The position numbers and the translations under genes are program-made. Shown piece by piece: positions 8,679 to 11,148 of a stretch of 64,000 nt of DNA (position 1 is the stretch's first letter; every line of letters starts with the position of its first letter). The notes under the pieces were generated by a model. It ran no database searches and was not told the origin of the DNA. It was given only the letters and a program-made list of their open reading frames with translations. This DNA is from Bacteroidota bacterium (GTDB lineage: Bacteria > CLD3 > SB21): positions 13,109-77,108 of the forward strand of contig JBBIJR010000003.1 of assembly GCA_037445875.1 (NCBI GenBank), given 5' to 3'.

Positions 8679-8946
8679 GGTTAGGCTCCTCCTCGATATG
8701 GATGCGGTCATCGGAACGACCCGCCCGGCTCAATGGCCGCGGGCAGGTTCATAGACAGGCGGTTACGCGGACGATCCTGCGAGGCACGAATCGTCACGAC
8801 GGAGAAAGATGAGGTATTTTCGTGTAAACGGCAATGGGAAATGTATCGGAGAATCCCTCGACACGAGAGCCGAAAGGAGAGATTGACACGCGGAGGTATC
8901 ATAAAAAGAGTAGTTTGCCCGATTCTTGAAATCGTCCTAGCTTCGG

Positions 8947-9461
8947 ATGGAGAGTCTCGAAGATGAAAGGCAATTTGACACATTCCAGATTGAAAGGGAA
9001 ATCACTTCGCCGGACAGCAACCGCAAGATCATCGCCGAATTGGCCAAGTACGCCCTGTTCTTCGAACAGGAAAGAGGACGTTTCCCCAAGACGCTGATCT
9101 TCGCGACCAATGATACTCAGCACGTCTCTCATGCCGATACGATTGTTCAAATGTGCAAGGAGACCTTTCATCGGGGAGATGATTTTGTCATGAAGATTAC
9201 GGGCAATCCCAACGTGGACCGTCCGCTCGAAAAACTGCGCCGATGGATCGTGTCTTCAAAGACAAATCTCTGACGGAAGAGCAACATATCTGGATCGACT
9301 ATATCAAAGAATTCCAGATTCAGAATCTGACCATTGAAGAACAGGATTTGAAAGACGCTCCGATCTTTGAGCGGCATGGCGGGCTTGCAAAATGTAAGAA
9401 AGTTTTCAAGACCGACTACAAGTCTCTGATACAACAAATCAATACAGCAATTGCTGCGTAA
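8947..9461 (+). pseudogene. hsdR: Remnant of a type I restriction enzyme R subunit (hsdR): a helicase C-terminal fragment and an EcoEI_R_C-like C-terminal fragment in two overlapping frames
   Basis: ORFs 8947..9273 (..KTLIFATNDTQHVSHADTIV..KITGNPNVDRPLEKLRRW) and 9243..9461 (EcoEI_R_C-like DRVFKDKSLTEEQHIWIDYIKEF..). The roughly 700 aa of N-terminal nuclease/helicase core are absent, and the two pieces are in different frames. Confidence 0.5.
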
Positions 9462-9471
9462 TTGTTGCGTG

Positions 9472-9500
9472 GATAGAGAACCCCATCGGGGTTCTCTATC
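9472..9500. repeat. Perfect 13-bp-stem palindrome (gatagagaacccc atc ggggttctctatc) just after the hsdR remnant; a REP-like CCCC/GGGG family member or terminator
   Basis: Self-complementarity read directly from the sequence. The outer gtggat/atccac arms extend the stem. Confidence 0.6.
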
Positions 9501-9526
9501 TGTAGTCATCCACGAATTAGAAGACA

Positions 9527-10036
9527 TTTAAACCCCGTAGGGGTTTTATTTCAAGGCCAAATACCTATTCACCAATCTACATCCACATCGTATTTTGTCC
9601 GAAGGGACGCGCCAATCTGATTCCGCAAGAGCATGAGGAGGAATTGTACAAGTACATCACGGGCATCGTAAGAAATAGAAACCAAAACTACTTGCGATCA
9701 ACGGCATGCCGGATCATGTTCATATCCTTCTCGGGCTTAAACCCGACATAGCCGTGTCCGATCTGGTGCGCGATGTCAAACATTTTTCGAGCACGTTTAT
9801 CAATGATAAAAAGTGGCTTTGCGGCAAGTTCAACTGGCAGGAAGGATTCGGTGCGTTTTCATATTCGCGATCTCAAATCAGTTCGGTCGCCGAATACATA
9901 AAGAACCAGAAAGAACATCATCGGAAACGGTCGTTTCGAGAGGAATGCTTTGGGATCCTGAATGAATCTGGGGTCGAATATGATGAGAAATATCTCTTCG
10001 AATGGATTGAATGACATAAAACCCCTACGGGGTTTG
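9527..10036 (+). mobile_element. Decayed IS200/IS605-family (RAYT-like) element: Y1 transposase pseudogene flanked by oppositely oriented hairpins
   Basis: aaaccccgtaggggttt at about 9530..9546 and its reverse complement aaacccctacggggttt at about 10018..10035 bracket the tnpA remnant. Confidence 0.6.
9560..10014 (+). pseudogene. tnpA: IS200-like / REP-associated tyrosine transposase (Y1 HUH transposase), N-terminally truncated and frameshifted
   Basis: A frame with no start codon reads ..YIHIVFCPKGRANLIPQEHEEELYKYITGIVRNRNQ. The frame then shifts near 9677 into ORF 9706..10014 (KLLAINGMPDHVHILL HUH motif..; catalytic Tyr context AEYIKNQKEHH). The whole is collinear with Salmonella IS200 TnpA. 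Confidence 0.7.
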
Positions 10037-10067
10037 TGATCCTATGACTTCGATGCTTTACAGACAT

Positions 10068-10086
10068 GAAACCCCTCCGGGGTTTC
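10068..10086. repeat. REP-like palindrome copy (gaaacccctccggggtttc)
   Basis: Family CCCC-N3-GGGG, same orientation as the 10018 copy. Confidence 0.5.
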
Positions 10087-10157
10087 AGGCCATGGTGTAT
10101 AATGAAAGTTCAAACACGAAATCATTCGTGAGTTCAATCACTTACCATCAGATGTAT

Positions 10158-10176
10158 CAAAACGCCGTAGGCGTTT
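10158..10176. repeat. REP-like palindrome copy (aaaacgccgtaggcgtttt), diverged
   Basis: CGCC-GTA-GGCG variant of the same hairpin, in the orientation of the 9530 copy. Confidence 0.45.
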
Positions 10177-10211
10177 TATGTCTGTAACAGCAACAAAAAG
10201 GAACTCAGCGT

Positions 10212-10228
10212 AAACCCCGTAGGGGTTT
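10212..10228. repeat. REP-like palindrome copy (aaaccccgtaggggttt) abutting the hsdM fragment
   Basis: Identical to the 9530 copy. It sits immediately 5' of the hsdM N-terminal coding remnant. Confidence 0.55.
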
Positions 10229-10552
10229 CATGTAAAGGAGACCCTGTCCGACATCGTCAATAAACTCTGGGGATTCTGCCACACCCTGCGCCATGACGGC
10301 GTGGATTACGGCGACTACATCGAACAGCTTACATATCTGCTGTTTCTCAAAATGGCCGATGAACGCGAAGTTCATGTGCCCAAAGGCTACGATTGGAACA
10401 GCCTGAAGAAACTTTCCGGCACGGAACTCACCGACCACTATTCGGAAATCCTCCGCAAGCTCCGGGAAAGAGGCATCCTTGGAAAGATATTCACTCAAGC
10501 CATGCCGCGTATCAATAATCCGGCACGAGTCCCGGACAAACGCCAAAAATAG
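10226..10552 (+). pseudogene. hsdM: N-terminal fragment (about 100 aa) of type I restriction-modification methyltransferase subunit HsdM
   Basis: ..IVNKLWGFCHTLRHDGVDYGDYIEQLTYLLFLKMADERE.. is the HsdM_N signature. The frame is open from just after the palindrome (ORF 10301..10552 uses an internal GTG). It stops after about 100 aa, whereas full HsdM is about 500 aa. Confidence 0.6.
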
Positions 10553-10772
10553 CCTTTCGCAGTCGCAGGTAGTCTCAAGTAGTCTCAAAATTTGAAGTGC
10601 CCTGTGCCGGGCCTTTATATTGCCTACGTTGATTTTTTAACGAGGCAAAATAAAAGCGATGGAAACTCCGGTCATAGAAAACGAAGAAGAATACGAAAAC
10701 TTGGATGTCGCCGAAGAAACACTTAAAACAAAAAGACCAATGAACATTGTTAACTGCTCATTGGTCAGTGTG

Positions 10773-11148
10773 CGGTGGAGACGACGGGAATTGAACCCGT
10801 GTCCGAGAATAAGCCACCTGAGATTTCTACGTGCGTAGCCCGCTTTGGGTTCTCGCTCCGGTATCGAAAGCGGACGAAAAGCGCCGGAGCCAGCTCGATG
10901 TCCCGACGAATCGGGTTCTCACCTCAGGCCTCCGAGCATTGGCCTTCGGCTAGTCTGTTTGAAATGACGCCCTGACCAACCCCGACAGACGAGAGTCAAC
11001 CAGAACGGACTGCAGAGTGTTACCTCTTAGGCAGCCAACGCGTAAGCGTTGTTGTTGTTTGTTTTTTCCCCGCTTGTTTAACGAGCACGCAGAGAAGCTC
11101 GGCACGCCGTCCCAGGACGCCTAGACCCGTCGAATCCAGTTCGTCCCC
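10773..11148 (-). ncRNA. ssrA: tmRNA (ssrA), about 376 nt, CCA not encoded
   Basis: Reverse complement gives 5' GGGGACGAACUGGAUUCGACGGG.. and 3' ..GGACACGGGUUCAAUUCCCGUCGUCUCCACC. Both are close matches to E. coli tmRNA ends (G3:U70 alanine identity pair preserved). Internal tag reading frame ..AAC AAC AAC AAC GCU UAC GCG UUG GCU GCC UAA (NNNNAYALAA stop). Confidence 0.85.

What the first reader, a model, noticed from the sequence alone, without database searches (positions are those of the whole stretch)
9472..10228. Six clustered CCCC-N3-GGGG palindromes in both orientations around a Y1 transposase remnant
Copies lie at about 9472-9500 (extended 13-bp stem), 9530-9546 (aaaccccgtaggggttt), 10018-10035 (aaacccctacggggttt, the exact reverse complement of the former), 10068-10086 (CTCC variant), 10158-10176 (CGCC/GGCG variant) and 10212-10228 (identical to the 9530 copy). 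The two copies bracketing the tnpA remnant are inverted relative to each other. That is the geometry of REP doublets (REPINs) mobilised by REP-associated tyrosine transposases. No other copy of this palindrome family was seen elsewhere in the 64 kb, so here it is confined to the island.
Basis: seen in the sequence. Interest (0 to 1): 0.55.

Follow-up and report, generated by a model that had tools for sequence, protein, structure and literature searches.

The report
Hairpin modules flanking dead Y1 transposase
The six small palindromes are real and are the conserved flanking DNA hairpins of a dead IS200-like (Y1/HUH) transposase cassette that once inserted into a restriction-modification operon. 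They resemble REP/RAYT systems but are not one, and they reveal a flank architecture not reported for this enzyme subclass.

Summary
Observation confirmed. Six CCCC-N3-GGGG-type hairpins lie in 9472-10233 and nowhere else in the 64 kb (about 0 expected by chance).

Each hairpin is part of a longer unit: a 5-13 bp stem, an RTA loop, 3 nt, then a tail like ATGTCTGTAG.

The Y1 pseudogene belongs to TnpA-Y1 subclass 1.2 (DHVH, WQ, YIKNQKEHH), which is IS200-like, not a RAYT. In about 80 homologous loci from several phyla the gene has the same flanks:
- two units upstream, plus-oriented, about 50 nt apart;
- two inverted units downstream.

Stems covary strongly across these loci.

A covariance model built only from other loci recovers exactly the six window units. 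They map as outer-L, inner-L, gene, inner-R, outer-R, plus an extra gene-less outer/inner pair.

Units cluster at the gene: 3.7 per kb within 150 bp, against 0.002 per kb at 5-10 kb. They are therefore not dispersed REPs. None has a terminator T-run.

The closest relative (L006, 74% aa) carries the same hsdR-[cassette]-hsdM arrangement. Closely related operons lack the cassette, with only a 3-6 nt gap, so the block is an insertion.

In the window everything is decayed and lies in a low-GC islet beside ssrA.

Best reading: these are cis sites of the HUH enzyme. The mechanism is inferred, not shown.

The parts
8941..9461 (+). hsdR remnant (type I restriction subunit). It matches residues 420-521 and 813-890 of an L006-like HsdR, so the 5' part is missing, there is an internal deletion, and the frame is shifted.
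   Evidence: tblastn to L006 HsdR gives 86% and 62% identity. Pfam EcoEI_R_C and NCBIfam type I endonuclease also hit.
9472..9506 (+). Unit #1, 'outer-left' module: 13-bp hairpin GATAGAGAACCCC-ATC-GGGGTTCTCTATC whose right arm runs into the tail CTATCTGTAG.
   Evidence: DNA fold -13.3 kcal/mol, z -7.2. Model R1 gives a full-length match, 26.4 bits, E 4e-4. Same position and same ATC loop as the outer-left unit of L006.
9530..9549 (+). Unit #2, 'inner-left' module: AAACCCC-GTA-GGGGTTT plus a truncated tail, directly in front of the Y1 reading frame.
   Evidence: R1 gives a partial match, 14.2 bits. Starts 53 nt after #1, on the family's roughly 50-nt lattice.
9555..10014 (+). Y1 (HUH) transposase pseudogene of TnpA-Y1 subclass 1.2. 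The start codon and RBS are lost, and there is a 1-nt deletion at about 9676/9677.
   Evidence: Pfam Y1_Tnp E 8e-28. NCBIfam transpos_IS200 78.5 bits, above cut-off 55. Motifs DHVH, NWQ and YIKNQKEHH are visible. About 80% nt identity to L006.
10014..10035 (-). Unit #3, 'inner-right' module. It is the exact reverse complement of #2, starts 4 nt after the stop codon, and its tail overlaps the stop codon.
   Evidence: R1 17.9 bits on the minus strand. Inverted repeat I2 with #2 is 96% complementary.
10058..10088 (-). Unit #4, 'outer-right' module: TTACAGACATG + AAACCCC-TCC-GGGGTTT.
   Evidence: R1 full-length match, 29.7 bits, E 6e-5, minus strand. Starts 50 nt after #3. Aligned with the outer-right unit of L006.
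10157..10187 (+). Unit #5, an extra outer-type module with a compensated stem (CGCC/GGCG). With #4 it forms an inverted doublet.
   Evidence: R1 full-length match, 29.7 bits, E 6e-5. Inverted repeat I1 has 28-nt arms, 86% complementary, with 74 nt between them. Similar -+ doublets recur at 86-108 nt in other loci.
10212..10233 (+). Unit #6, an extra inner-type module. Its tail ATGTAAAGGAGAC resembles the Y1 leader of L006. It abuts the hsdM remnant.
   Evidence: R1 18.2 bits. Starts 52 nt after #5. The alignment with empty and filled sites shows it is the right edge of the insertion.
10244..10552 (+). hsdM remnant covering residues 2-98, followed by unrelated sequence. The start codon has changed from ATG to CTG.
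   Evidence: 90% aa identity to L006 HsdM. Pfam HsdM_N. Alignment A4.
10773..11148 (-). tmRNA gene (ssrA). The low-GC islet (about 8712-10772) abuts its 3' end.
   Evidence: ARAGORN. Rfam RF00023, 154.7 bits. GC is 46-49% in the islet against 56-64% in the adjacent 1-kb windows (53-64% across the window).

Best explanation
The six palindromes are the cis-acting DNA modules of a small IS200-like cassette.

**The cassette.** It consists of a Y1 (HUH) enzyme gene of TnpA-Y1 subclass 1.2 framed by 'hairpin + tail' units. Each unit has a 5-13 bp stem, an RTA loop, 3 nt, and then (C/A)TGTTTGTAG, which reads ATGTCTGTAG in this lineage.

**Canonical layout.**
- Outer-left and inner-left units sit upstream, both plus-oriented, about 50 nt apart, with tails pointing to the gene.
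- Inner-right and outer-right units sit downstream as their mirror image.
- The window has this set (#1-#4) plus an extra outer/inner pair (#5, #6).

**History (shown).** The block inserted between hsdR and hsdM of a type I restriction-modification operon in a Bacteroidota-like lineage. It arrived in this genome inside a low-GC islet beside ssrA. It is now dead: the Y1 gene lacks its start and is frameshifted, and hsdR and hsdM are fragments.

**Mechanism (inferred, not shown).** As with IS608 and ISDra2 TnpA, the nearest solved relatives, the enzyme would bind the hairpin on single-stranded DNA and cut at a fixed distance in the tail. Because the flanks are mirror images, left units would be substrates on the top strand and right units on the bottom strand.
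For: **Family-wide architecture.**
- In 82 homologous loci a GC-rich perfect hairpin lies within 40 nt before the start in 53 (typically 9-15 nt) and within 40 nt after the stop in 52 (typically 4-10 nt).
- Second units sit about 55-66 nt out on both sides.
- Same-orientation neighbours are 47-53 nt apart in 36 of 44 upstream cases.

**Structure is selected.**
- Of 205 sequences picked by the tail alone, 59% have a perfect hairpin of at least 5 bp at the fixed offset, with 23 different stem cores.
- The covariation score is 0.470, against 0.215 in shuffles (0 of 500 reach it) and 0.06-0.17 for slid partners.

**The window units belong to the family.** Model R1, built from 95 units of other loci with no window or AAACCCC-type sequence, returns exactly the six units as the six best hits in 64 kb on both strands. 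Outer units match full length and inner units match partially.

**Linkage to the gene.** Unit density is 3.7 per kb within 150 bp of the gene. It falls to 0.13 per kb at 1-2 kb and 0.002 per kb at 5-10 kb.

**Insertion.**
- L006 (Y1 74% aa) has hsdR-[cassette]-hsdM.
- Operons with HsdM 94%, 83% and 82% identical (L206, L209, L210) have hsdR stop and hsdM start only 3-6 nt apart, with no Y1 gene and no hairpins.

**Protein class.** NCBIfam transpos_IS200 scores above its cut-off. The nearest solved structures are ISDra2 and IS608 TnpA. The motifs match subclass 1.2 of PMC6006769.
Against: - No biochemical evidence shows that this enzyme binds or cuts these units.
- The flanks are mirror-symmetric. 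Characterised IS200/IS605 elements carry both end hairpins on one strand with unlike ends, so the analogy may not carry over.
- The tails point inward, unlike the outward cleavage sites of IS608.
- No guide-to-tail covariation was found beyond a sixth stem pair.
- In several genera the cassette sits at the same locus in different species. Published copy numbers are low (1.7 per genome, PMC6006769). Both fit a resident, possibly domesticated gene rather than an active IS.
- The exact ends and target of the insertion could not be fixed to the nucleotide, because the empty site is only 3-6 nt.
Confidence: 0.6

Rival explanations
1. REP/REPIN system in the strict sense. The hairpins would be repetitive extragenic palindromes spread through a donor genome and mobilised by a domesticated RAYT. 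The window would hold the 'REPtron' (RAYT plus flanking REPs).
For: - The gene is flanked by inverted hairpins that share stems with those of its closest relative.
- An inverted doublet #4/#5 exists.
- Gene-less arrays exist: a 2.9-kb array in L085 and 52-nt tandem arrays in L105 and L107.
- The cassette is vertically inherited at fixed loci in Flavobacterium and other genera, as reported for RAYTs (abstract of PMC5581495 as listed; paper not read).
Against: - The protein fails the RAYT model (29.4 bits against a cut-off of 80) and has the subclass-1.2 Y-motif.
- There is no PDB match to TnpA-REP at E 0.01 or better.
- The units lack a GT[AG]G foot next to the stem.
- Only 1 full unit was found in 519 kb lying 5-10 kb from Y1 genes.
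- There is no other copy in the 64-kb window.
- An empty-site/filled-site pair shows that gene and hairpins moved as one block.
Confidence: 0.15
2. Expression-control structures of the Y1 gene, as in IS200. An upstream hairpin would block read-through, a leader hairpin would mask translation initiation, and downstream hairpins would stabilise or terminate the transcript.
For: - The inner-left unit usually ends 9-15 nt before the start codon, and the inner-right unit begins 4-10 nt after the stop.
- IS200 is known to use a terminator hairpin and an RBS-occluding stem. This rests on general knowledge. Only the abstract of PMC4513863 (listed) was seen; it says mRNA secondary structure suppresses IS200 transposition and does not mention a terminator hairpin or RBS occlusion.
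Against: - No T-run follows any of the six hairpins, and none is flagged as terminator-like.
- Stems in most relatives are only 5 bp.
- The same unit, including its 10-nt tail, occurs in both orientations, in tandem arrays and without a gene. RNA-level control of one gene does not explain this.
- G-T pairs are not clearly favoured over other mismatches: 16 of 63 non-Watson-Crick cells in the five core pairs.
Confidence: 0.15
3. Chance palindromes or generic terminators unrelated to the Y1 gene.
For: The bare 17-mer is common in metagenomes without any Y1 gene nearby (77 of 80 loci), and some copies are followed by T-runs.
Against: - Six copies occur in 760 bp, against about 0.2 expected in 64 kb.
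- All six carry the family tail at the fixed offset and the family spacing.
- The layout is conserved in dozens of homologous loci.
Confidence: 0.02

Closest known systems
TnpA-Y1 subclass 1.2 (Quentin et al. 2018, BMC Genomics 19:475, PMC6006769)
   Same: The protein has the HuH motif DH[IV]H (DHVH), the WQ motif, the Y-motif YIKNQKEHH, a length of about 150 aa and the conserved C-terminal extension. Relatives occur mostly in Bacteroidota, at low copy number.
   Different: [quoted passage not shown] Here the genes show a conserved pair of hairpin-tail modules on each side with covarying stems, plus one filled-site/empty-site pair. The relatives found here also extend well beyond Cyanobacteria and Bacteroidetes, to Ignavibacteria, Brocadiaceae, Nitrospirota, Elusimicrobiota, Desulfonema and Acidobacteriota.
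IS200/IS605 family insertion sequences (IS200, IS608, ISDra2)
   Same: Both have a single small Y1 HUH transposase gene of about 150 aa in an element of about 0.7-0.8 kb, with short subterminal hairpins instead of classical terminal inverted repeats. The protein passes the NCBIfam IS200 model, and the nearest solved structures are the ISDra2 and IS608 TnpA proteins.
   Different: - Characterised members have unlike left and right ends, with both hairpins on the same strand and cleavage sites outside the hairpins.
- Here the flanks are mirror images, each with two modules about 50 nt apart and tails pointing inward.
- Extra modules and arrays are common.
- Copies are few, and often syntenic between species.
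RAYT/TnpA-REP with REP, BIME and REPIN sequences (Nunvar 2010, PMC2817692; Bertels and Rainey 2011, PMC3116915; Ton-Hoang 2012, PMC3333891)
   Same: In both, a Y1 gene is framed by inverted copies of a short palindrome that co-varies with the gene lineage. Both show inverted doublets, clusters with regular spacing, and vertical inheritance in some clades.
   Different: - The protein belongs to a different class (class 1, not class 2, and it lacks the Y---NP motif).
- The units have GTA in the loop and a (G/A)TAG at the end of a 13-nt 3' extension, rather than a GTAG foot.
- No dispersed high-copy population was found in the 1.2 Mb of flanks examined.

Membership tests
RAYT / REP-REPIN system | The transposase belongs to the RAYT class (class 2, Y---NP motif; NCBIfam REP_Tyr_transpos) | tested here: not met
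   REP_Tyr_transpos scores 29.4 bits against a cut-off of 80. The Y-motif is YIKNQKEHH. No TnpA-REP structure is matched.
RAYT / REP-REPIN system | The gene is flanked by at least two palindromes in inverted orientation | tested here: met
   #1 and #2 (+) lie upstream, #3 and #4 (-) downstream. The same holds in most homologous loci.
RAYT / REP-REPIN system | The palindromes are abundant (typically more than 100 per genome) and dispersed in intergenic regions | tested here: not met
   There is no copy outside the islet in 64 kb. In 78 related loci density is 0.002 units per kb at 5-10 kb from the gene. Whole genomes could not be scanned.
RAYT / REP-REPIN system | A conserved GT[AG]G tetranucleotide sits at the 5' foot of the hairpin | tested here: not met
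   The 5' flank is variable and A/T-rich. The conserved bases are the loop RTA and a tail ending (G/A)TA(G/A) 13 nt 3' of the stem.
IS200/IS605 family | Encodes a Y1 HUH transposase that matches the family models | tested here: met
   Pfam Y1_Tnp E 8e-28. NCBIfam transpos_IS200 78.5 bits, above its cut-off of 55.
IS200/IS605 family | Subterminal hairpins at both ends, on the same strand, with unlike left and right ends | tested here: not met
   Hairpins are present at both ends, but as mirror-image pairs, + + on the left and - - on the right.
IS200/IS605 family | Behaves as an insertion: filled and empty sites exist among close relatives | tested here: met
   Compare hsdR-[cassette]-hsdM in L006 and the window with hsdR-3 to 6 nt-hsdM in L206, L207, L209 and L210.
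IS200/IS605 family | Inserts 3' of a specific tetra- or pentanucleotide without target duplication | tested here: inconclusive
   No duplication is visible, but the ends cannot be placed to the nucleotide.
IS200/IS605 family | Several near-identical copies within a genome | tested here: inconclusive
   Three contigs of one MAG (L030, L031, L033) share the cassette, but within a roughly 3-kb repeat. The literature gives 1.7 copies per genome with 36% identity between copies.
TnpA-Y1 subclass 1.2 | HuH DH[IV]H, WQ, Y-motif YIKNQKEHH, length about 148 aa | tested here: met
   The reconstructed protein has DHVH, NWQ and YIKNQKEHH over 151 aa. These were compared with Table 1 of PMC6006769.
Intrinsic terminator | A G+C-rich stem-loop followed by a T-run | tested here: not met
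   None of the six is reported by the terminator scan, whereas the hairpin after ssrA is.

The most novel reading that the evidence does not exclude
Subclass-1.2 Y1 enzymes and their hairpin-tail modules may form a so far unrecognised type of HUH element with two-fold symmetric ends. Each end would consist of two modules on a roughly 50-nt lattice, so either DNA strand offers the same substrates. Such an element could insert as a block, for example between hsdR and hsdM. It could persist vertically for long periods. It could also seed gene-less doublets and kilobase-long arrays. It would sit between IS200 and the RAYT/REP systems.
Probability: 0.35. Interest if true: 0.6.

Novelty: new variant of a known kind. 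Interest (0 to 1): 0.45.

Why it matters
The window copy itself is a dead relic and has no functional consequence for its host.

The value lies in what it led to. Subclass 1.2 is a large family: 8000 of the 8000 candidate proteins scored passed E <= 0.001 in one search (the tool scores only the top 8000 candidates). The one survey that defined it described it as having neither IS-type ends nor REPs. Here its genes show a sharply conserved and covarying flank architecture, and one clear insertion event.

This supplies concrete candidate DNA substrates for an uncharacterised HUH enzyme. It also offers a possible intermediate between selfish IS200 elements and domesticated RAYT/REP systems. HUH enzymes with short defined hairpin substrates are also of practical interest as DNA-protein coupling tags.

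Tried and rejected
- **Bare 17-mer in metagenomes.** Of the 80 loci, 77 had no Y1 gene, and 72 of 100 occurrences had neither the family tail nor a T-run. The 17-mer alone is not a marker, so it cannot measure abundance.
- **Element ends from three copies in one MAG (L030, L031, L033).** The shared region is about 3 kb, so it says nothing about the cassette ends.
- **Direct repeat of the ssrA 3' end as an islet border.** None was found.
- **IS608-like 'guide' pairing between the 5' flank and the tail.** Only a sixth stem pair showed a signal.
- **Rfam.** No family covers the hairpins.
- **Plasmids and phages.** Subclass-1.2 genes occur only on two Bacteroidota megaplasmids and in no phage record, so no vector was identified.
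- **Literature.** No paper after 2018 on the subclass was found, and the hairpin consensus strings do not occur in the library.
- **CGTC-type REPs (PMC3733652).** Considered and rejected, because their stem length, loop and tail differ.
Full report
**1. The observation**

- #1: 9472-9500, 13-bp stem.
- #2: 9530-9546.
- #3: 10019-10035, the exact reverse complement of #2.
- #4: 10067-10087, core CCCC-TCC-GGGG. This is not a CTCC stem.
- #5: 10159-10177, CGCC/GGCG.
- #6: 10212-10228, identical to #2.

Chance does not explain them. AACCCCNNNGGGGTT occurs 5 times against 0.00 expected. The 17-mer with up to 2 mismatches occurs 6 times against 0.21 expected. All copies lie in this 760-bp stretch of the 64 kb. 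Each folds as DNA better than shuffles, with z from -2.5 to -7.2.

**2. Context**

The hairpins lie in a low-GC islet (46-49%, against 56-64% in the adjacent 1-kb windows and 53-64% across the window). The islet sits between a minus-strand gene ending at 8711 and the 3' end of a tmRNA gene at 10773-11148 on the minus strand.

The islet holds:
- a fragmented hsdR (EcoEI_R_C domain);
- a Y1_Tnp pseudogene;
- the first roughly 100 codons of hsdM.

The Y1 gene has lost its start and RBS, and carries a 1-nt deletion near 9676.

**3. The hairpins are parts of oriented units**

Around the stems there is a shared 3' extension, giving AAACCCCGTAGGGGTTT-YATGTCTGTA. This gives each unit a direction: #1 +, #2 +, gene, #3 -, #4 -, #5 +, #6 +.

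Start-to-start spacings are 53, 50 and 52 nt for #1-#2, #3-#4 and #5-#6. #4 and #5 form an inverted doublet with 28-nt arms, 86% complementary.

**4. Relatives**

The reconstructed protein has thousands of homologues. Eighty genome loci were fetched, at 57-74% identity. They come from Bacteroidota, Ignavibacteria, Brocadiaceae, Nitrospirota, Elusimicrobiota, Desulfonema and Acidobacteriota.

Nearly all of the closer ones show one layout:
- an outer-left unit (hairpin, 3 nt, CTGTTTGTAG);
- about 50 nt further on, an inner-left unit (typically GCTCC-GTA-GGAGC-GACCTGT), usually ending 9-15 nt before the start codon;
- after the stop codon, the mirror image: ACAGGTC-GCTCC-TAC-GGAGC, then CTACAAACAG plus a hairpin.

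With strict criteria, 53 of 82 loci have the inner-left unit and 52 of 82 the inner-right unit. Hairpins also lie about 55-66 nt out on both sides. Same-orientation neighbours are 47-53 nt apart in 36 of 44 upstream pairs. Inverted -+ doublets recur at 86-108 nt, and the window's is 90 nt.

**5. The stem is under selection**

To avoid circularity I selected sequences by the 10-nt tail alone, within 400 nt of the genes.
- Of 205 distinct sequences, 59% have a perfect hairpin of at least 5 bp with a 3-nt loop at the fixed offset. Chance would give about 0.1%.
- They use 23 different stem cores.

On the alignment of 127 of them:
- the five core pairs show 29-46 double changes in four pairs and 4 in the loop-closing pair;
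- the covariation score is 0.470, against 0.215 in shuffles (0 of 500 reach it) and 0.06-0.17 when partners are slid.

Outer-left and outer-right stems of one locus often differ. What is kept is therefore the fold of each unit, not pairing between the two flanks.

**6. The window units are members**

A covariance model (R1) was built from 95 units of other loci. It contained no window sequence and no AAACCCC-type stem. I ran it unfiltered over the whole window on both strands.

It returned exactly the six units as the six best hits:
- #5, #4 and #1 as full-length 'outer' matches (29.7, 29.7 and 26.4 bits);
- #6, #3 and #2 as 'inner' matches that stop after CTGT (18.2, 17.9 and 14.2 bits).

The orientations are those given above, and nothing else scores below E 4.

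So #1-#4 are the canonical outer-left, inner-left, inner-right and outer-right units. #5 and #6 are a further gene-less outer/inner pair.

**7. Not dispersed REPs, not terminators**

Density of full units against distance to the nearest Y1 gene in 78 loci:

| Distance from gene | Units per kb |
|---|---|
| under 150 bp | 3.7 |
| 150-300 bp | 2.1 |
| 300-600 bp | 0.9 |
| 600-1000 bp | 0.4 |
| 1-2 kb | 0.13 |
| 2-5 kb | 0.04 |
| 5-10 kb | 0.002 (1 unit in 519 kb) |

Most of the distant units belong to one 2.9-kb array that starts at the gene in L085.

The exact 17-mer on its own is common in metagenomes in unrelated contexts. Of 80 loci, 77 have no Y1 gene, and 72 of 100 occurrences have neither tail nor T-run. 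Only the full unit is informative.

None of the six hairpins is followed by a T-run. Rfam has no family for them.

**8. Which enzyme**

- The protein passes NCBIfam transpos_IS200 (78.5 bits, above 55) and fails REP_Tyr_transpos (29.4 bits, below 80).
- Its nearest solved relatives are the ISDra2 and IS608 TnpA proteins, at E about 1e-7.
- Its motifs (DHVH, WQ, YIKNQKEHH) are those of TnpA-Y1 subclass 1.2 of Quentin et al. 2018.

[quoted passage not shown] I found no later paper on the subclass. I also found no occurrence of the hairpin consensus in the searchable literature.

**9. It moved as a block**

The closest relative, L006 (an uncultured Bacteroidota MAG), is 74% identical in amino acids and about 80% in nucleotides. 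It has the same AAACCCC-type units and the same neighbours: hsdR, cassette, hsdM, hsdS.

The window's hsdR pieces match L006 HsdR residues 420-521 (86%) and 813-890 (62%). Its hsdM piece matches residues 2-98 (90%).

In the closest operons without a Y1 gene, the hsdR stop and hsdM start are 3-6 nt apart and no hairpin is present. These operons are:
- L206 and L207, with HsdM 94% and HsdR 81% identical to L006;
- L209 and L210, with HsdM 82-83% identical.

The whole block, hairpins included, is therefore an insertion. It measures 770 bp in the window and about 830 bp in L006.

Elsewhere the cassette is syntenic between species of one genus. In Flavobacterium loci L013, L018, L022 and L027 the flanks are 78-85% identical. 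Loci L026/L040, L030/L046/L051 and L074/L077/L080 show the same pattern. So it also persists vertically.

It is rare on plasmids and absent from phage records.

**10. How it most likely works**

Shown:
- the units are structured, co-located with the Y1 gene and co-inherited with it;
- they moved with the gene at least once.

Inferred, by analogy with IS200/IS605 TnpA, which binds subterminal DNA hairpins on single strands and cuts at a fixed distance (established knowledge; PMC6006769 background):
- the units are the enzyme's binding and cleavage sites;
- the mirror symmetry lets each strand present 'hairpin then tail' substrates on one side.

What does not fit the IS608 model:
- the symmetry itself;
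- the inward-pointing tails;
- the two modules per side;
- the absence of detectable guide pairing.

An expression-control role remains possible for the inner units. It does not explain the mirror copies, the arrays or the gene-less pairs.

**11. Verdict**

The finding is real. The REPIN/RAYT reading is a fair analogy, but membership fails.

The window copy is an inactive relic, carried by a decayed restriction-modification islet next to ssrA. The wider result is a conserved hairpin-tail architecture for Y1 subclass 1.2. That is a modest but genuine addition to what is described for this enzyme family.

Noticed in passing
window 8712-10772 and 10773-11148: A roughly 2-kb low-GC islet (46-49%, against 56-64% in the adjacent 1-kb windows) abuts the 3' end of the tmRNA gene (tag GEKTNNNNAYALAA). 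It holds only gene fragments. No direct repeat of the ssrA end marks its far border.
   Followed up: partly
window 8941-9461 and 10244-10552: Remnants of a type I restriction-modification operon. hsdR keeps residues 420-521 and 813-890 only and is frameshifted. hsdM keeps residues 2-98, with its start codon changed to CTG. Both are 86-90% identical to an uncultured Bacteroidota operon (L006).
   Followed up: yes
L085 10450-13400: In a Saprospiraceae MAG the Y1 gene is followed by an array of at least 2.9 kb of alternating plus and minus hairpin-tail units, with a period of about 137 nt. It is the largest cluster seen.
   Followed up: no
L105 11550-11910; L107 1-340; also L102, L112: Tandem arrays of 44-54-nt units occur in metagenome contigs. 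Each unit is AAACCCCGTAGGGGTTT plus a tail such as CATTTTAATAG plus a repeated spacer. No Y1 gene lies within the fetched locus, except in L107 where one lies 3 kb away.
   Followed up: partly
L104, L110, L111, L137, L144, L145, L148, L164 and others: The same 17-mer sits in a recurrent, highly conserved context (TGTTGGAAGTGTGGT-17mer-TCCAAGTCCCTGTGGTAAAC). This accounts for at least 13 of the 100 occurrences, and at least two of the contigs are from human gut metagenomes. There is no Rfam match and the nature of the element is unknown.
   Followed up: partly
L065 4070-4800; L084 9990-10700: In two Flavobacterium loci a more distant Y1 gene also lies between hsdR and hsdM, in an R-M operon only about 30% identical to that of L006. 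Its start overlaps the upstream stop (TAATG) and there are no left-hand hairpins, so it may be a separate capture into an R-M operon.
   Followed up: no
L030, L031, L033: Three contigs of one Ignavibacteriaceae MAG share a roughly 3-kb repeat (93-95% identical) that contains the cassette. This could be a larger mobile unit or strain variants.
   Followed up: partly
L001 4565-6721; L003 375-1364; L206 1-1828; L209/L210 7369-10407: Neighbours of Y1 cassettes, and of the related R-M operons, are often defence genes: MmeI-type enzyme, Shedu SduA_C, AbiEi, KAP NTPase and McrB-like. A link between the cassette and defence islands was not tested statistically.
   Followed up: no
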